DNA of 40,156 nucleotides from Shigella phage ESh23. The notes beneath the pieces were generated by a model, which did not search any database, had not been told where the DNA came from, and saw only the letters and a list, made by a program, of their open reading frames with translations. This document shows, in pieces, positions 9,831-24,643 of the stretch. A program made the translations under genes and the position numbers. The DNA lies in sequence record ON528733; one strand, written 5' to 3'. How positions within the stretch are numbered: the stretch's first letter is position 1; each line of letters opens with the position of its first letter.

Positions 9831-9885
9831 ACACACACTACGGGCGGCGACGCTACGTGGATTCTGAGAAACGAGGAGGGCAACT

Positions 9886-10335
9886 ATGCTCGAACTTTTA
9901 CGTAGATGCGCACCTTGGCTGGTGGCAGGACTCCTGTTCTGCTCAGGTTACTGGGTGGCAGACAATAAGTGGGAGGCGAAGGTAAGCAATGAGTACATCA
10001 CGAAACTTGAGGCACGAGAGAATCAACGGGCTGCTGTCCAAGGTGAAATCGACAAAGTGTCAGCAGAGTGGCAAGACAAGATGTCCGCGCTGGAAGGCTC
10101 TACTGATAGGATTATTGCTGACCTTAACCGCGATAACAAGCGGCTGCGCATCCGAGTCAAACCCACCAGTGGCACAGTCCAGACTGACGGTCGATGCGTC
10201 ATTGATGGTTACGCCGAACTTGACGAACGAGATGCTAAGCGTCTTATCGCCATCGGACTGAAAGGAGACGAATGGATTAAGGCCCTCCAGAAGACCGTGA
10301 GAGCCATGCAGCAAGAGAAGGAGGTGAAACCTTGA
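9886..10335 (+). CDS. i-spanin (Rz-like, T7 gp18.5-like), 149 aa
   Basis: N-terminal TM segment plus coiled-coil; matches recalled T7 gp18.5 ([24 protein letters not shown]). Confidence 0.85.
9989..10261 (+). CDS. o-spanin (Rz1-like, T7 gp18.7-like) embedded in the +1 frame of the i-spanin gene; true start probably internal
   Basis: Embedded ORF with lipoprotein-type signal and lipobox LTAITSGC. Confidence 0.55.
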   Translation: MSTSRNLRHERINGLLSKVKSTKCQQSGKTRCPRWKALLIGLLLTLTAITSGCASESNPPVAQSRLTVDASLMVTPNLTNEMLSVLSPSD

Positions 10336-12095
10336 GTCAAGACTTAGCGGCGCGTCAGGCGCTTATGACTGCACGTATGAAGGCAGACTTCGTGTTCTTC
10401 CTGTTCGTTCTGTGGAAAGCTCTGTCACTTCCGGTCCCGACTCGCTGTCAGATTGACATGGCGAAGAAACTATCGGCTGGGGACAACAGGCGTTTCATCT
10501 TGCAGGCGTTCCGTGGTATCGGGAAGTCCTTCATTACGTGCGCCTTCGTGGTCTGGAAGCTATGGAATAACCCGGACTTGAAGTTCATGATTGTGTCGGC
10601 CTCAAAGGAACGAGCCGATGCTAACTCCATCTTCATCAAGCGTATCATCGACCTGATGCCTCAGCTCCAAGAGTTGAAGCCTAAGCAGGGACAGCGAGAC
10701 GCAGTAATCAGCTTTGACGTAGGGCCTGCCAAGCCTGACCACTCTCCGTCGGTTAAGTCCGTTGGTATCACTGGTCAGTTAACTGGTAGTCGTGCTGACA
10801 TCCTGATTGCCGATGACGTAGAGGTCCCCGGTAACTCAGCTACTCAGGCGGCTCGTGACCGACTGTCAGAGCTGGTGAAGGAGTTCGACGCAATCCTGAA
10901 GCCGGGTGGTACGGTTATCTATCTGGGTACGCCTCAGACCGAGATGACCCTGTATCGACAGCTTGAGGGCCGTGGCTACTCAACTACCATCTGGCCTGCT
11001 CGCTATCCACGCGATGAGAAGGACTGGAAGTCTTATGGCGACCGTCTGGCTCCGATGCTTCAGGCCGAGCTTGAGTCTGACCCTGAGGGCTACTACTGGA
11101 GACCTACCGATGAGGTTCGCTTCGATGATGAGGACCTGAAGGAACGTGAGCTGTCCTACGGTAAGGCTGGCTTCGCTCTACAGTTCATGCTCAACCCGAA
11201 CCTAGGGGATGCCGAGAAGTACCCTCTGAAGCTGCGTGACCTTATCGTAGCGGACTTGGACCCTGAGTCTAGCCCTATGGTCTACCAGTGGCTTCCGAAC
11301 CTTCAGAACAAGCGTGAGGACGTTCCTAACGTTGGACTCATGGGTGACGCCTACCACACGTATCAGACTGTAGGTTCTGCCTTCAGCTCGTACACCCAGA
11401 AGATTCTGGTCATTGACCCTAGTGGTCGTGGTAAGGATGAGACCGGGTATGCGGTGCTGTATCAACTCAACGGCTACATCTTCGTGATGGAAGCTGGTGG
11501 TATGCGTGGTGGTTACGAGGACTCAACGCTGGAAGCTCTGGCGAAGATTGGTCGCAAGTGGAAGATTAACGAGTACGTCATTGAGGGTAACTTCGGTGAT
11601 GGCATGTATCTCGAATTATTCAAGCCTGTAGCGGCCCGTATTCACCCGGCAGCAGTGACTGAGGTCAAGAGTAAGGGCCAGAAGGAACTCCGCATCTGCG
11701 ACGTTCTGGAGCCTATCATGGGGTCTCACCGACTCATCGTGAACTCCTCGACCATTGTGTCTGACTACCAGACTGCCGCTGATAATGATGGAGTCCGCAA
11801 CCCTATCTACTCACTGTTCTATCAGATGACCCGTATAAGCCGTGAACGTGGAGCCTTGGCTCACGATGACCGACTCGATGCTCTGGCTATCGGTGTGCAG
11901 TTCTTCGTAGAGTCTATGGCGAAGGATGCCGTAAAGGGACAGCGTGAAGTAACCGAGGAGTGGCTGGAGGAACAGATGGAGGACCCACGGAAAGGCTTTA
12001 AGTCCATCGAGACTGACTATTGGGACAATGGGGTCCGGGTCCAGTTCAATACAGATGACGACTTGGGCTTAGGGTCCTACGTCCAGTTCCACTAA
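10332..12095 (+). CDS. terminase large subunit (T7 gp19-like), 587 aa if TTG start
   Basis: Near-collinear with recalled T7 gp19 ([23 protein letters not shown], [41 protein letters not shown]); AAGGAGGTGA SD before TTG at 10332 (alternative ATG at 10368). Confidence 0.93.
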
Positions 12096-12190: not shown

Positions 12191-12212
12191 TTAACTATCA
12201 CTATAGGGAAGA
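12191..12212 (+). promoter_or_regulatory. phage RNAP promoter (phiOR position): TTAACTATCACTATAGGGAAGA
   Basis: Conserved promoter motif downstream of the terminase gene. Confidence 0.7.
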
Positions 12213-12384
12213 CCCCCGGTTGCTTATAGTAAAGACTCAATGAATAAGCATATGCACACTTTATGCAAGACCTTAGGAGGCAGACTCCTGAGTTCTTACC
12301 TAAGGTTAGCACCGATGGAGAGGGTGATTGTAATCATCACACCCTCATAACTTAAGTAGACCCTAAGCGACAGGAGGTATGTAG

Positions 12385-12534
12385 CATGGGTAAGACCAAA
12401 GCTGTTCTCAAAGCTCTGGCGACCAATAGAGCTACATACAGGTTTCTTGCTGCTGTTCTACTTGCTGCTGGCGTTACTGCTGGAAGTCAGTGGGTCGGGT
12501 GGGTCGAGACTCTCGTATGTACTCTGGTGTCTGA
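12385..12534 (+). CDS. small protein, T7 gp19.5-like, 49 aa
   Basis: 49 codons with GGAGG SD; contains TYRFL motif as in recalled T7 gp19.5 (49 aa); last gene before the genome end region. Confidence 0.55.
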
Positions 12535-12577
12535 GTGCCATTAACGCAATCATGGTAACAATCAACGAAAGACGGAC

Positions 12578-12618
12578 CTAAGGTCAGTTCATAGCTGACG
12601 CTACTCTACTGACCTTAG
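12578..12618. repeat. inverted repeat (11 bp arms CTAAGGTCAGT / ACTGACCTTAG, 19 bp spacer) downstream of gp19.5
   Basis: Read directly from sequence; arms are exact reverse complements. Confidence 0.6.
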
Positions 12619-12781
12619 CTACTGTAGTCAAGGACTTTAGGTAACACCTTAAGAGAAGCTCACTTAGGGTCATCCTACTTACTGGTCTATCCTAGTGTCG
12701 CCTGACCTACGGTCCTTGACCTACAGTAGCTGGGTCCTACAGTAGGGACGATGAGTTTTGGACCAAAAGTTTGAGACCACA

Positions 12782-12960
12782 TCTCACAGTTCAAGAACCT
12801 CAAGTCTCCCCATAGGCCTCTTTAAGTCTCGACCAAAGGCCCTACCCTAGACCTTCGGTCTAAACCTCAAGTCATTGACGTCTGGTCAGGACCAAAAGTC
12901 TACCTCAAGGGCCTATATCTTGTGGTTGGGACGATTGGTCGGGACTATATGTTGTGTCTC
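12782..12960. repeat. candidate terminal repeat (collapsed single copy) beginning with the T7/T3-type left-end signature TCTCACAGTTCAAGAACC; extent approximate
   Basis: TCTCACAGT matches the first bases of the T7 genome; region is non-coding with short repeats (CCTCAAGTC x3, GACCAAAAGT x2); boundaries cannot be fixed from one copy. Confidence 0.35.
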
Positions 12961-13000
12961 CGAGTCCCTATCTGTATCAGCCTAAGGTCCTCACCTCAAG

Positions 13001-13065
13001 TCTCACTACCTACAGTCAATCCACTGGTAACGGGGCTACCTACAGTCTCACTACCTACAGTCAAT
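13001..13065. repeat. two perfect 20-bp direct repeats TCTCACTACCTACAGTCAAT (13001..13020 and 13046..13065) within a CCTACAGT-rich array
   Basis: Read directly; CCTACAGT-type motif recurs at least six times between 12700 and 13090, analogous to the CCTAAAG repeats of the T7 left end. Confidence 0.8.
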
Positions 13066-13290
13066 AGACACCTTGTTGACCTACAGTTTATCAGAGTCCT
13101 AAGGTCTAGACTCACAGGTTATCACATCCGGTCCGTTTAGCAGTCAGAGACCATAGCTGACTAGGGTTATCGTTGTTGGTGTCTGCCAACTGGACTCTTA
13201 TTATCCATAGTCCTGACCTAAAGTCAATCATCTGTAGTCATCCTTATATAGTCACTGGACTACTGTATAAATTAACATGATAAATAGTTG

Positions 13291-13319
13291 TTGACAGTAG
13301 GTCTAACTTTTGGTTTAAT
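13291..13319 (+). promoter_or_regulatory. host sigma70-type early promoter (T7 A1-like): TTGACA-17 nt-TTTAAT
   Basis: TTGACAGTAGGTCTAACTTTTGGTTTAAT resembles T7 A1 (TTGACTTAAAGTCTAACCTATAGGATACT). Confidence 0.5.
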
Positions 13320-13440
13320 AGCTTCCGTCAACACGACACGGCAACAACCGGATAGTGAAGACGCCGGGTCGGTCCGGTTAAGTAGTCAGCCTGTAAGACA
13401 TACGAACAACAGGCAACCGACAAGAAGGTGAAACAAACGC

Positions 13441-13470
13441 TTGACAAGATGTGCCGACTTAAAGTAGTAT
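13441..13470 (+). promoter_or_regulatory. host sigma70-type early promoter (T7 A3-like): TTGACA-18 nt-TAGTAT
   Basis: AAGGTGAAACAAACGCTTGACAAGATG...TAGTATGTACCACATCAACACGAC parallels the T7 A3 region (AAGGTGAAACAAAACGGTTGACAACATG...TACGATGTACCACATGAAACGAC). Confidence 0.55.
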
Positions 13471-13589
13471 GTACCACATCAACACGACGGTGAGGCCCAA
13501 CACTGAAACGGGATAGCGAGGCGACGACAGCTAAGCGAATGTTCTTTAACAATCTGGATAACTCTTAATGTGCGCCGATAGCGACTAAC

Positions 13590-13665
13590 TACAGGGCCTT
13601 GAGTCTACCGCGAGACGGGCTTGACTTGAGCGACTCAGGGTCCTGACTGATAGTCACTAACAACT
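13590..13665 (+). promoter_or_regulatory. structured leader element upstream of the first early gene (R0.3 position); shares the CCTGACTGAT-AGTCACT 3' motif with the elements at 14465 and 14905
   Basis: Position and partial match to the T7 R0.3 region (CTTTAACAATCTGG...); fold not verified. Confidence 0.3.
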
Positions 13666-13679
13666 GAGAGGATATAACT

Positions 13680-14186
13680 ATGGAACGTAACACTAACGCA
13701 TACTATGACCTGCTGGCTGCAACCGTTGAGCTGTTCAACGAGCGTATTCAGCAAGACGAAATAGCTGAAGGTGATGACTACAGCGATGCGCTGCATGAAG
13801 TCGTAGACGGTCAGGTTCCGCACTATTACAGCGAGATTTTCACGGTGATGGCTGCTGATGGTATTGACCACGAGTTCGAAGACTCTGGGCTGATGCCTGA
13901 TACCAAGGACGTAACGCGTATACTGCAAGCTCGCATCTATGAGGCACTGTATAACGATGTGTACAATAGCTCGGATGTAGTCTGGTTCGAGGCTGAAGAG
14001 AGCGACGAGGAGGACGAATACTGGGTGGTTGACGCTAAGACAGGTGCATTCATTGAGCAAGCTGTATCACTTGAGGTCGCTACTGCATGTGCCAAGGACC
14101 ACTATGCGATAGGTCGCCGCCTGAAAGTCGAAGACATCAACGACAACGTAGTGTTCGACCCTGCGGCTGCTGAGGACTGCGAGTGA
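13680..14186 (+). CDS. ocr: Ocr (T7 gp0.3-like anti-restriction DNA mimic) with ~50 aa C-terminal extension, 168 aa
   Basis: Core VPHYYSEIFTVMAADGIDHEFEDSGLMPDTKDVTRILQARIYE is near-identical to recalled T7 Ocr; acidic; first gene after the early promoters. Confidence 0.9.
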   Translation: MERNTNAYYDLLAATVELFNERIQQDEIAEGDDYSDALHEVVDGQVPHYYSEIFTVMAADGIDHEFEDSGLMPDTKDVTRILQARIYEALYNDVYNSSDVVWFEAEESDEEDEYWVVDAKTGAFIEQAVSLEVATACAKDHYAIGRRLKVEDINDNVVFDPAAAEDCE

Positions 14187-22369: not shown

Positions 22370-22530
22370 GTCAGGACGAGAAGAAGTACATCGTGGAGCT
22401 TGAGGGTCGCGTTCAGTCCTTTGAGGTCCCGGTATACGCCAAGTCTCTGGACGAGGCGACCCTAAAGTCTCAGGAGTACGAAGATGCTGGTTTCGTGGTA
22501 GGCCGCATCCGACCTGAGCTGCACGACTAA
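22366..22530 (+). CDS. inhibitor of host RNA polymerase (T7 gp2-like), 54 aa
   Basis: [14 protein letters not shown] matches recalled T7 gp2 (SFEVPIYAETLDEA). Confidence 0.75.
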
Positions 22531-22547
22531 ACTATCACTTTAGGAAC
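22528..22547 (+). promoter_or_regulatory. variant phage promoter (phi2.5 position): TAAACTATCACTTTAGGAAC
   Basis: Consensus with T at -2. Confidence 0.55.
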
Positions 22548-23278: not shown

Positions 23279-23731
23279 GTGGCTGCATGGACACCAAAAC
23301 GGGGGCACTCTGTGGGTGCCTACCGCTCTGGACTTGAGGCCAAGAACCAGCAGTGGCTGGAGCAGAATGGCGTCAAAGCGGAGTACGAAAGCCATTATAT
23401 CAACTATGTGATTCCGGCTTCCGACCACAAGTACACACCAGACTTCATACTTCCGAACGGAATCATCGTCGAGACAAAAGGTATCTTCGACAGTGAGGAC
23501 CGTAAGAAGCATATGCTGGTGCGCGAGCAACACCCTGAGCTGGACATCCGGTTCGTGTTCTCGTCCTCCCGCTCCAAGCTGTACAAAGGGTCCCCGACCA
23601 CGTATGGCGCATGGTGCGAAAAGAACGGCTTTAAGTTTGCCGACAAGTTTATCCCGGTTGAGTGGCTGAAAGAGGCGACTGTACGTCTGCCCTCAGGTAT
23701 ACTCATCCCGAAGAAAGGAGCTAAGAAATGA
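23279..23731 (+). CDS. endonuclease I, Holliday junction resolvase (T7 gp3-like), 150 aa, GTG start
   Basis: GAYRSGLE, YVIPAS, YTPDFxLPNGIxVETKG, DRKKHxLxREQHPELDIRxVFSSSRxKLYKGSPT. Confidence 0.95.
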   Translation: MAAWTPKRGHSVGAYRSGLEAKNQQWLEQNGVKAEYESHYINYVIPASDHKYTPDFILPNGIIVETKGIFDSEDRKKHMLVREQHPELDIRFVFSSSRSKLYKGSPTTYGAWCEKNGFKFADKFIPVEWLKEATVRLPSGILIPKKGAKK

Positions 23732-23952
23732 CTAAAGAAGTGCAGGTAGTCCGCGAGCGACTGACCATTGATAAAATCCCGGTGGGCTACGCGTTCATCG
23801 TTCATGGTCGACCGGACGAAGTGTACGTGAAGATTAGCAACTCGCATGTCTTCAACCATAAGCGCCTCCAGATGCACACGACTGTTAGCGAGCGCTTCAA
23901 GTCTCACCTGAATCTCGTAATCGTCGAGCTGGTGGTGTACAATGGTAAGTAA
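23728..23952 (+). CDS. hypothetical protein, 74 aa, inserted between endonuclease I and lysozyme genes
   Basis: Strong SD AAAGGAG; overlapping start and stop with neighbours. Confidence 0.6.
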   Translation: MTKEVQVVRERLTIDKIPVGYAFIVHGRPDEVYVKISNSHVFNHKRLQMHTTVSERFKSHLNLVIVELVVYNGK

Positions 23953-24400
23953 GGTTCAGTTCAAACCGCGTACAGTAACTGACGCAATCTTCGTCCACTG
24001 TAGTGCGACCCAACCGTCTCAGGACATCGGGGTAGACACCATCCGAATGTGGCACAAGCAGCAGGGCTGGCTGGACGTAGGCTATCACTTCGTCATCAAG
24101 CGTGATGGCACTGTGGAGTCTGGACGTCCGGTCGATGTAGTAGGGTCACACGTTAAGGACTGGAACTCCCGGTCCGTAGGCGTCTGCCTTGTAGGTGGAA
24201 TTGACGCCAAGGGTAAGTTTGAAGCTAACTTCACACCTGCCCAGATGAGCGCTCTACGAAACAAGCTGGCCGAACTGAAGGCATTGTACCCTCAGGCAGA
24301 CATCAAGGCTCACCACGATGTAGCACCAAAGGCTTGCCCAAGTTTTGACTTGCAGCGCTGGCTTAATACTAACGAACTGGTCACTTCCGACCGAGGCTAA
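23942..24400 (+). CDS. lysozyme / N-acetylmuramoyl-L-alanine amidase (T7 gp3.5-like), 152 aa
   Basis: DAIFVHCSAT, WLDVGYHF, KRDGTVE, GVCLVGGID, KACPSFDL, NELVTSDRG match recalled T7 gp3.5. Confidence 0.95.
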   Translation: MVSKVQFKPRTVTDAIFVHCSATQPSQDIGVDTIRMWHKQQGWLDVGYHFVIKRDGTVESGRPVDVVGSHVKDWNSRSVGVCLVGGIDAKGKFEANFTPAQMSALRNKLAELKALYPQADIKAHHDVAPKACPSFDLQRWLNTNELVTSDRG

Positions 24401-24414
24401 CAAGGAGCATTAAC

Positions 24415-24627
24415 ATGATTAAGTTTATTGAATTTCTGGGTCGTCTGGTTGTGCGTGGCTATGCTCGTGCTGCGAGTGTGGAACGAAAAGTCGCATCTGC
24501 TGCGGCTAAAGGTGCGGAAGCGGCTGCTGCGGAAGCGGATAGCCTGCGCATCAAGTCTCTGGACGCTGGCCTACGTGCCAAAGGTCTTGACAAGAAAGCC
24601 GAGCAACTGAAAGGCTTCTTCAGCTAA
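24415..24627 (+). CDS. hypothetical protein, 70 aa, Ala/Lys-rich helical
   Basis: SD AAGGAG 8 nt upstream. Confidence 0.55.
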   Translation: MIKFIEFLGRLVVRGYARAASVERKVASAAAKGAEAAAAEADSLRIKSLDAGLRAKGLDKKAEQLKGFFS

Positions 24628-24643
24628 ACTATCACCTTAGGGA
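24625..24643 (+). promoter_or_regulatory. variant phage promoter (phi4 position): TAAACTATCACCTTAGGGA
   Basis: Consensus with CT at -3/-2. Confidence 0.5.

What the first reader, a model, noticed from the sequence alone, without database searches (positions are those of the whole stretch)
23728..23952. Extra 74-aa gene wedged between endonuclease I and lysozyme
In T7 genes 3 and 3.5 abut. Here a 74-aa ORF with a strong SD (AAAGGAG) overlaps both neighbours' termini (MTKEVQVVRERLTIDKIPVGYAFIVHGRPDEVYVKISNSHVFNHKRLQMHTTVSERFKSHLNLVIVELVVYNGK).
Basis: partly seen in the sequence, partly recalled or inferred. Interest (0 to 1): 0.4.

Follow-up and report, generated by a model that had tools for sequence, protein, structure and literature searches.

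The report
Kayfunavirus gene 3.2, short form
The 74-codon ORF is a real, selected gene (gp3.2) found in K1F-like relatives of phage T7. It is already annotated as a hypothetical protein in many genomes, is predicted to fold as a small SH3-like barrel, and has no known function.

Summary
An ATG ORF at 23728..23952 (+) follows an AAAGGAG ribosome-binding site with a 7-nt spacer. It overlaps the endonuclease I stop (ATGA) and the first 11 nt of the amidase/lysozyme gene. T7 has no gene at this junction.

It is not new. The window is a complete Kayfunavirus genome, 98% identical to Citrobacter phage SH4 across the 1.3-kb gene 3-3.5 region. The identical protein is annotated in 16 phage records as SH4 gp18 or Dev2 gp3.2. 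About 220 phage records carry the gene, essentially the whole genus, always right after gene 3. It matches PHROG 15211, which has no assigned function.

Coding is well supported: pN/pS is 0.21 in frame against 1.4-1.8 out of frame, and 0.17 among short forms alone.

What this work adds:
- The protein is the stand-alone form of a conserved C-terminal module.
- At least 80 related phage genomes carry that module behind one of at least five unrelated, locus-specific N-terminal modules.
- A divergent clade in a Providencia phage and related metagenomic contigs keeps the same position.

The function is unknown. My best guess is a non-enzymatic binding or adaptor module made with the middle (DNA-metabolism) genes. 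Interest is low.

The parts
22527..22544 (+). Phage-RNA-polymerase promoter (phi2.5 equivalent) that starts the transcription unit holding genes 2.5-3-3.2-3.5-3.7
   Evidence: One of 12 + strand matches to CTAAACTATCACTATAGG; 0.03 are expected by chance. It corresponds to the annotated phi2.5 promoter of EcoDS1.
23279..23731 (+). Gene 3, endonuclease I (Holliday-junction resolvase), 150 aa, apparent GTG start. Its TGA stop overlaps the gene 3.2 start.
   Evidence: ORF listing. Homologous ORFs are annotated as endonuclease I in all related records.
23714..23720 (+). Shine-Dalgarno sequence AAAGGAG of gene 3.2, 7 nt before the ATG, inside the end of gene 3
   Evidence: Read directly from the sequence.
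23728..23952 (+). Gene 3.2, short form: 74 aa, 8.6 kDa, pI 9.7
   Evidence: Searches give the ORF. PHROG 15211 matches at E=7.5e-52 over the full length. The protein is 100% identical in 16 phage records. pN/pS is 0.21, and 0.17 among short forms.
23758..23919 (+). Codons 11-64: the predicted SH3-like β-barrel core. It carries the family-invariant residues G20, F23, Y33, S37-N38-S39-H40, F42, N43, Q48-M49-H50-T51-T52, R56, F57 and L61.
   Evidence: The AlphaFold2 model m4cefa4de151e has block pLDDT of 86-93 over residues 11-60, with strands 22-25, 28-35, 40-43, 48-51 and 61-64 and a helical turn at 55-58. The invariant columns come from alignment A2.
23929..23952 (+). Tail of gene 3.2 (ELVVYNGK*), which also carries the GGTGGTG ribosome-binding stretch and the ATG (23942) of gene 3.5. 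This segment is doubly constrained.
   Evidence: Sequence. Codons 69-74 show almost no synonymous variation, unlike the rest of the gene. The segment has low pLDDT in the model.
23942..24400 (+). Gene 3.5, N-acetylmuramoyl-L-alanine amidase (T7 lysozyme homologue), 152 aa
   Evidence: ORF. tblastn finds 1535 records; 216 are at least 80% identical and correspond to Kayfunavirus.
24624..24641 (+). The next phage promoter, upstream of the primase/helicase gene 4. It marks the end of the unit that holds gene 3.2.
   Evidence: No terminator-like site lies between 22400 and 24800.

Best explanation
The ORF is gene 3.2 of a Kayfunavirus (a K1F-like member of the T7 group). It is a genuine middle, class II-type gene.

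(a) Expression. It is transcribed by the phage RNA polymerase from the promoter upstream of gene 2.5. It is translated from its own strong ribosome-binding site. The ATGA overlap with gene 3 and the 11-nt overlap with gene 3.5 are consistent with translational coupling on both sides.

(b) Product. The 8.6-kDa protein is predicted to be one SH3-like small β-barrel: five strands with a short helical turn before the last. A polar and aromatic patch is strictly conserved (SNSHxFN...QMHTT...RF).

(c) Family architecture. This barrel is the constant C-terminal module of a two-part protein. At least 80 Kayfunavirus genomes, and the divergent Providencia-phage clade, carry it behind a Pro/Ser-rich linker and one of at least five unrelated N-terminal modules. 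The 74-aa form in this window appears to have lost the N-terminal module but remains under selection.

(d) Inferred mechanism. The barrel acts without catalysis. It docks onto a partner that is conserved across all hosts of these phages, either a phage replication/recombination protein or a universal host protein. Where N-terminal modules are present, they add lineage- or host-specific contacts.

What is shown and what is inferred:
- Shown: gene reality, conservation, synteny and modular architecture.
- Predicted: the fold.
- Inferred: that the protein works by binding. The partner's identity is unknown.
For: Gene reality:
- ORF, ribosome-binding site and overlaps are in the sequence.
- pN/pS is 0.21 in frame against 1.4 and 1.8 out of frame. 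It is 0.17 within short forms alone.
- Invariant residues use several synonymous codons.

Distribution:
- 220 phage records carry the gene, against 216 records with a Kayfunavirus-type amidase at 80% identity or more.
- In other genera the sampled rows often list endonuclease as the feature overlapping the amidase match; in the sampled Kayfunavirus rows it is mostly a hypothetical protein.
- An exhaustive HMMER search of 1.84 billion representative proteins found only 14 hits.
- In the distant clade (35-40% identity) the gene still directly follows endonuclease I with overlapping stop and start.

Transcription unit: promoters lie at 22527 and 24624 with no terminator between them.

Modularity:
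- Long forms of 134-226 aa carry unrelated N-terminal modules.
- One protein carries two N-terminal modules in tandem (P0013).
- Independent in-frame partial deletions always keep the C-terminal module (P0004-P0006).
- Within the same long-form genes, pN is 0.24 for the type A N-terminal module and 0.042 for the C-terminal module.
- The N-terminal modules occur only at this locus.

Fold:
- AlphaFold2 gives pLDDT 78.8 overall and 86-93 in the core, with SH3-like strand order.

No enzyme signature was found in Pfam, NCBIfam, PADLOC or PDB sequence searches.
Against: - No experiment or paper assigns any function. The only literature mention found is a table entry.
- The model rests on only 19 sequences. 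A run with 8 sequences gave pLDDT 37.
- An invariant Ser/Asn/His/Thr cluster could just as well be a catalytic or metal site.
- The link between N-terminal module type and host genus is confounded by phage phylogeny.
- Expression has not been shown by RNA or protein data.
Confidence: 0.6

Rival explanations
1. gp3.2 is an accessory factor of DNA recombination or maturation that works with its upstream neighbour, endonuclease I. It might bind the resolvase or branched DNA and so tune or restrain junction cleavage.
For: The gene directly follows gene 3 with overlapping stop and start in Kayfunavirus and in the distant clade found in a Providencia phage and related metagenomic contigs. It sits in the DNA-metabolism transcription unit. 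The Kayfunavirus barrel is basic, with pI 9.2-9.7. SH3-like barrels often bind nucleic acids.
Against: T7 and more than 1300 other amidase-carrying relatives run the same resolvase without it. The barrel of the distant clade is not basic (pI 6.3), and the invariant residues are polar or aromatic rather than Lys/Arg. Adjacency in a tightly packed T7-like genome is weak evidence of partnership.
Confidence: 0.15
2. The invariant Ser-Asn-Ser-His / Gln-Met-His-Thr-Thr cluster is an active or metal-binding site. On this reading gp3.2 is a very small enzyme or a metal- or ligand-binding protein, not an adaptor.
Confidence: 0.1
3. The short form is a relic. After losing its N-terminal module it is kept only as a spacer that carries the ribosome-binding site and start of gene 3.5 and passes ribosomes on from gene 3. 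The peptide itself does nothing.
For: The last six codons are constrained at the nucleotide level by the gene 3.5 start. Both ends overlap their neighbours. N-terminal modules have been lost repeatedly.
Against: Short forms alone show pN/pS of 0.17 with pS of 0.37. The most conserved residues (33-52) lie far from either overlap and vary synonymously. A spacer would not need an intact 74-codon frame in about 140 genomes. T7 needs no spacer at this junction.
Confidence: 0.05
4. It is not a gene: a chance ORF, or the neighbouring genes' boundaries are miscalled.
For: None beyond its small size. A 167-aa antisense ORF (23404..23907) overlaps it.
Against: All of the conservation, frame-specific selection and synteny evidence argues against this. 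All genes and all 12 promoters of this genome are on the + strand.
Confidence: 0.01

Closest known systems
gp18 of Citrobacter phage SH4 (YP_009279746.1), gp3.2 of Cronobacter phage Dev2, and the same ORF in SFPH2, GW1, SH5 and EP1 (PHROG 15211)
   Same: The 74-aa protein is 100% identical, sits in the same position between endonuclease I and the amidase, and has the same overlaps.
   Different: Nothing. It is the same gene. All these records call it a hypothetical protein.
gp3.2 of coliphages K1F and EcoDS1 (PHROG 16385, long form, 156-163 aa)
   Same: The C-terminal 70 residues are 80-81% identical to the window's protein. The locus is the same, and so are the start at the gene 3 stop and the overlap with gene 3.5.
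   Different: They carry an extra N-terminal module of about 75 aa (GWPxGTIVTKC...QPDGMWGAWV) and a Pro/Ser-rich linker, both absent here. That module shows no profile similarity to the barrel. It evolves about six times faster at the protein level.
SH3-like small β-barrel domains (EF-P domain I/KOW, FeoA, the DtxR/IdeR C-terminal domain, ribosomal L2, Tudor)
   Different: There is no sequence relationship (3-15% identity). The scores are below the usual confidence line, and Foldseek finds nothing significant. This is a fold-class resemblance, not family membership.
Small host-takeover proteins of T7, such as Gp2 (RNA polymerase inhibitor), gp0.4, gp4.5, gp5.5 and gp5.9 (from general knowledge of T7 biology)
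   Same: Similar size, early or middle expression, lineage-restricted distribution and no enzymatic domain. This is the kind of role proposed here.
   Different: There is no sequence or demonstrated structural similarity to any of them, and no target is known. The resemblance is an analogy recalled from knowledge, not a test.

Membership tests
Kayfunavirus gp3.2 (PHROG 15211 short form / PHROG 16385 long form) | Full-length sequence match to the family profile | tested here: met
   phrog_15211 matches at E=7.5e-52 over residues 1-74 of 74. phrog_16385 matches at E=9.6e-34 to profile positions 88-157.
Kayfunavirus gp3.2 (PHROG 15211 short form / PHROG 16385 long form) | Position directly after endonuclease I (gene 3) and before the amidase (gene 3.5), with overlapping stop and start | tested here: met
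   Window. The layout is the same in EcoDS1, K1F, EPr2, LET1 and SH4.
Kayfunavirus gp3.2 (PHROG 15211 short form / PHROG 16385 long form) | Invariant core motif Y-x3-SNSHxFN-x4-QMHTT-x3-RF | tested here: met
   Residues Y33, S37-H40, F42, N43, Q48-T52, R56 and F57 are present. They are invariant even in the relatives at 35-40% identity.
SH3-like small β-barrel fold | Five-stranded barrel with a short helical turn between strands 4 and 5 | tested here: met
   The AlphaFold2 model has strands 22-25, 28-35, 40-43, 48-51 and 61-64 and a helix at 55-58, with core pLDDT of 86-93. This is a prediction only.
SH3-like small β-barrel fold | Significant structural superposition on solved SH3-like domains | tested here: inconclusive
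Pfam Imm11 (PF07791), the only Pfam hit | Score at or above the Pfam gathering threshold | tested here: not met
   13.2 bits against a cut-off of 22.1, E=0.057, covering only 27 residues. This is noise.
Canonical T7 gene set | A counterpart at the gene 3 / gene 3.5 junction of T7 | tested here: not met
   T7 genes 3 and 3.5 abut at 10706. Of the 222 records with a tblastn match at E up to 10, all but a chance hit in a lemur virus are Kayfunavirus-type or Providencia phages.
Phage anti-defence / host-takeover proteins | A demonstrated host or defence-system target, or a phenotype on defence-carrying hosts | not testable with these tools
   There are no hits to PADLOC models and no functional literature.

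The most novel reading that the evidence does not exclude
gp3.2 is a modular host-interaction factor. On this reading, a constant SH3-like docking barrel is fused to interchangeable, fast-evolving N-terminal 'heads' that are exchanged by recombination at a conserved linker. These heads would adapt each Kayfunavirus lineage to its host, for example by neutralising a defence system or a host factor. The bare 74-aa barrel in this window would be the minimal, head-less version that still does the core job.
Probability: 0.2. Interest if true: 0.55.

Novelty: already known. Interest (0 to 1): 0.2.

Why it matters
As an ORF it changes nothing. It is annotated in many deposited genomes and is a reliable marker of the genus Kayfunavirus.

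Its value is as a candidate for functional work. It is a near-universal, strongly selected small protein of unknown function in phages that are being developed for therapy against E. coli K1, Shigella, Salmonella Typhi, Citrobacter, Cronobacter and Enterobacter.

The constant-barrel, variable-head architecture described here points to where lineage-specific adaptation may sit. It also tells experimenters which 60 residues to mutate first.

Tried and rejected
- Pfam, NCBIfam, PADLOC and PDB-sequence searches of the short form, six to ten long forms, and the family profiles gave nothing meaningful. The Imm11, VhuG and Cas6 hits are sub-threshold noise.
- The word-indexed protein search found only 7 close clusters. 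The profile search added the divergent clade.
- The exhaustive HMMER search found only 14 representatives, so there is no wider family.
- The first AlphaFold2 run, with 8 sequences, was useless at pLDDT 37. The second, with 19 sequences including divergent ones, was usable.
- Foldseek against the PDB gave no significant hit. BFVD returned only family members and unnamed small phage proteins. The afdb50 library was not available.
- I looked for a paralogue in the window and found none.
- I tested whether the type A N-terminal module is an internal duplicate of the barrel. It is not: hhalign probability was 0.1%.
- I looked for the type A N-terminal module in 185,579 bacterial and archaeal genomes and in IMG/VR. 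It occurs only in the same Kayfunavirus contigs.
- Literature searches for gp3.2, gene 3.2, Kayfunavirus accessory genes and anti-defence roles found no functional study.
- The apparent 'endonuclease VII' annotation over the match in phage SHAK9454 came from feature coordinates offset from the sequence in an UNVERIFIED record. It is not a different context.

Full report
1. THE OBSERVATION

ATG is at 23728 and the TAA stop ends at 23952. It has 74 codons and encodes the quoted peptide. AAAGGAG lies at 23714-23720, seven bases before the ATG.

The ATG overlaps the TGA stop of the 150-codon endonuclease I ORF (23279..23731) as ATGA. The last 11 bases overlap the 152-codon amidase/lysozyme ORF, which starts at 23942.

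2. WHAT GENOME THIS IS

The 1.3 kb around the ORF is 98% identical to Citrobacter phage SH4, Shigella phage SFPH2 and Cronobacter phage Dev2, which are Kayfunavirus or close relatives (Autographiviridae, Studiervirinae).

All large ORFs are on the + strand. Twelve copies of a phage-polymerase promoter, CTAAACTATCACTATAGG, are also all on the + strand, where 0.03 would be expected by chance. The window is therefore a complete, circularly permuted K1F-like genome.

Its length of 40,156 bp equals that reported for Shigella phage ESh23 (ON528733), whose closest relative is SFPH2, in PMC9686686. That match is suggestive only.

3. IT IS A REAL AND ALREADY ANNOTATED GENE

tblastn finds the protein in 220 phage records. 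Sixteen of them are 100% identical. Where annotated, the match is labelled 'hypothetical protein' or 'gp3.2' (Dev2, EcoDS1, K1F AM084414). In SH4 it is gp18, YP_009279746.1. It matches PHROG 15211 over its full length at E=7.5e-52; that family has no assigned function.

The number of records with the gene (220) is about the same as the number with a Kayfunavirus-type amidase at 80% identity or more (216). In the roughly 1300 amidase-carrying phages of other genera, the sampled rows often list 'endonuclease' as the feature overlapping the amidase match. In the sampled Kayfunavirus rows it is mostly a 'hypothetical protein'. Gene 3.2 is thus a genus signature.

Selection is clear:
- Over 26 distinct nucleotide versions of the last 66 codons, pS is 0.47 and pN is 0.097, a ratio of 0.21. 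The other two + frames give 1.39 and 1.79.
- Within the 13 short forms alone the ratio is 0.17.
- Invariant residues use several synonymous codons, so conservation is at the protein level.
- The exception is the last six codons, which barely vary even synonymously. They carry the ribosome-binding stretch and ATG of gene 3.5.

4. TRANSCRIPTIONAL CONTEXT

The nearest promoters are at 22527-22544, upstream of gene 2.5, and at 24624-24641, upstream of the primase/helicase gene. No terminator-like site lies between them. Gene 3.2 is therefore part of a 2.5-3-3.2-3.5-3.7 middle-gene message. Its overlaps with both neighbours are consistent with translational coupling.

5. THE WIDER FAMILY: A CONSTANT BARREL WITH VARIABLE HEADS

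In at least 80 phage records the homologous ORF is 134-164 aa long, and up to 226 aa in one metagenomic representative (P0013). Only its C-terminal 70 residues or so match the window's protein.

The N-terminal parts fall into at least five unrelated types:
- EcoDS1/K1F type: GWPxGTIVTKC...QPDGMWGAWV
- SHAK9454 and Enterobacter-phage type
- IMM-002 type
- CR8 type
- ZH4/Monomax type

Further types occur in divergent members. One protein carries two N-terminal modules in tandem (P0013). Most types join the barrel through a conserved linker, PQVLPASSVPPVTVKRE.

Metagenomic variants show independent in-frame partial deletions of the type A module, and each keeps the barrel (P0004-P0006). Within type A genes, the N-terminal module has pN of 0.24 (pN/pS 0.38), the linker pN/pS is 0.14, and the barrel has pN of 0.042 (pN/pS 0.11). 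Both parts are functional, but the N-terminal module evolves about six times faster.

The N-terminal modules occur only at this locus. tblastn found 81 places in 80 records, and every listed one lies next to or overlaps gene 3. None was found in 185,579 bacterial and archaeal genomes. In IMG/VR they occur only in the same Kayfunavirus contigs. Type A shows no profile similarity to the barrel.

Long forms are common in Escherichia phages (47 of 87 records) and Enterobacter phages (12 of 18), and nearly absent from Salmonella phages (1 of 59). This association is confounded by phylogeny.

The family barely exists outside the genus. An exhaustive HMMER search of 1.84 billion representative proteins gave 14 hits. 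The most distant, at 35-40% identity in the barrel, belong to Providencia phage PSTRCR_120 and related metagenomic contigs. There too the gene directly follows endonuclease I with overlapping stop and start. All these distant members have N-terminal modules. The 74-aa form therefore looks derived by loss.

6. STRUCTURE

With 8 close sequences, AlphaFold2 failed at pLDDT 37. With 19 sequences including the divergent clade, it gave pLDDT 78.8 and pTM 0.65, with the core (residues 11-60) at 86-93.

The model has strands at 22-25, 28-35, 40-43 and 48-51, a helical turn at 55-58, and a strand at 61-64. That is the order of elements of an SH3-like small β-barrel.

- Foldseek against the PDB finds nothing significant.
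- BFVD returns family members and unnamed small phage proteins.

So the fold class is probable but no specific relative emerges.

The family-invariant residues are G20, F23, Y33, S37-N38-S39-H40, F42, N43, Q48-M49-H50-T51-T52, R56, F57 and L61. They sit on strands 3-4 and the helical turn, and are polar or aromatic rather than basic. The Kayfunavirus barrel has pI 9.2-9.7, but the divergent clade's is 6.3. A purely electrostatic DNA-binding role is therefore not conserved.

7. HOW IT MOST LIKELY WORKS

The following are shown: it is a real middle gene; it is conserved, selected and syntenic with gene 3; and it is the stand-alone form of a constant module that elsewhere carries variable N-terminal modules. 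The fold is predicted to be an SH3-like barrel.

The rest is inferred. There is no enzyme signature. The domain is only about 60 residues. Its conserved patch is polar. It is fused to interchangeable N-terminal modules.

The most economical reading is a non-enzymatic binding or adaptor module. Its partner would be conserved across Escherichia, Salmonella, Shigella, Citrobacter, Cronobacter, Enterobacter, Klebsiella, Pectobacterium, Hafnia and Providencia hosts. That partner would be either a phage replication/recombination protein or a universal host protein. The N-terminal modules would add lineage-specific contacts.

I put about 0.97 on 'real gene gp3.2', about 0.7 on the fold, and about 0.4-0.5 on the binding-module mechanism. 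The partner is unknown.

Rivals, with probabilities:
- A cofactor of endonuclease I or junction DNA: 0.15
- A tiny metal-binding or catalytic site built on H40/H50: 0.10
- A relic kept only as a coupling spacer: 0.05, contradicted
- Not a gene: 0.01

8. COMPARISON WITH WHAT IS KNOWN, AND VERDICT

The protein is identical to annotated proteins of SH4, Dev2, SFPH2 and others. It belongs to an existing PHROG. As a sequence feature it is already known.

No paper in the searchable library assigns it a function. The only mention found is a BLAST-table entry in the SH1-SH5 paper, PMC4925675.

What this work adds is modest: frame-specific selection statistics, the genus-signature distribution, the constant-barrel/variable-head architecture, the divergent clade with conserved synteny, and a usable fold prediction.

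Interest is low (0.2). The most novel reading not excluded is a docking barrel with exchangeable, host-adaptive N-terminal modules. It would be moderately interesting if shown.

Noticed in passing
window 1-40156: The window is a whole, circularly permuted Kayfunavirus genome with all genes on the + strand. Its length of 40,156 bp equals that published for Shigella phage ESh23 (ON528733; closest relative SFPH2) in PMC9686686. That record did not appear among the BLAST hits.
   Followed up: partly
window 6711, 12190, 16391, 19928, 21676, 22527, 24624, 27007, 31172, 33994, 34990, 39458 (+): Twelve phage-RNA-polymerase promoters match CTAAACTATCACTATAGG with at most 3 mismatches, where 0.03 are expected by chance. 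A weaker thirteenth candidate lies at about 26258.
   Followed up: partly
window 23279-23290; L057 (SH4) 9870-10088: Endonuclease I appears to start at a GTG two bases after the gene 2.5 stop. The conserved N-terminal GAYRSGLE region lies upstream of any ATG. In the SH4 RefSeq record the endonuclease CDS is annotated as only 219 bp (72 aa), so that record probably truncates the gene.
   Followed up: partly
window 23404-23907 (-): A 167-aa antisense ORF covers the end of gene 3 and most of gene 3.2. No gene or promoter of this genome is on the - strand, so it is almost certainly spurious.
   Followed up: no
L002 (K1F NC_007456) 1240-1710: K1F gp3.2 in this record departs from the family after ...QMHTT and ends in an unrelated 21 residues (GRTTLHPAHESSGRRIGGVQW). 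This looks like a frameshift, either a sequencing error or a real lesion, that removes the last strand of the barrel.
   Followed up: no
L003 (OR594184.1, phage SHAK9454): The feature coordinates of this UNVERIFIED record are offset from the sequence: 'endonuclease VII' and 'DNA polymerase' labels lie over gene 3.2 and the amidase. The locus also holds a 148-aa ORF (376-822) with HNH-like Cys/His motifs, read by eye, directly upstream of gene 3, where T7 has gene 2.8.
   Followed up: partly
L052 (Providencia phage PSTRCR_120) 1659-2012: In the divergent clade a further 117-aa hypothetical gene sits between the gp3.2 homologue and the endolysin. The gene 3 / gene 3.5 junction thus appears to be a recurrent insertion site for accessory genes.
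   Followed up: no
window 12993-13065, and about 12200-13680: A 28-nt direct repeat occurs twice, 45 nt apart, in a stretch of about 1.5 kb that has no ORF of 90 aa or more. This is probably the region of the genome ends, terminal repeat and early control elements of the permuted assembly.
   Followed up: no
window 24415-24627 (+): A 70-aa alanine-rich ORF follows the amidase in the position of gene 3.7. Its 3' end overlaps the first 4 bases of the next phage promoter (24624-24641). Related records annotate it as a hypothetical protein.
   Followed up: no
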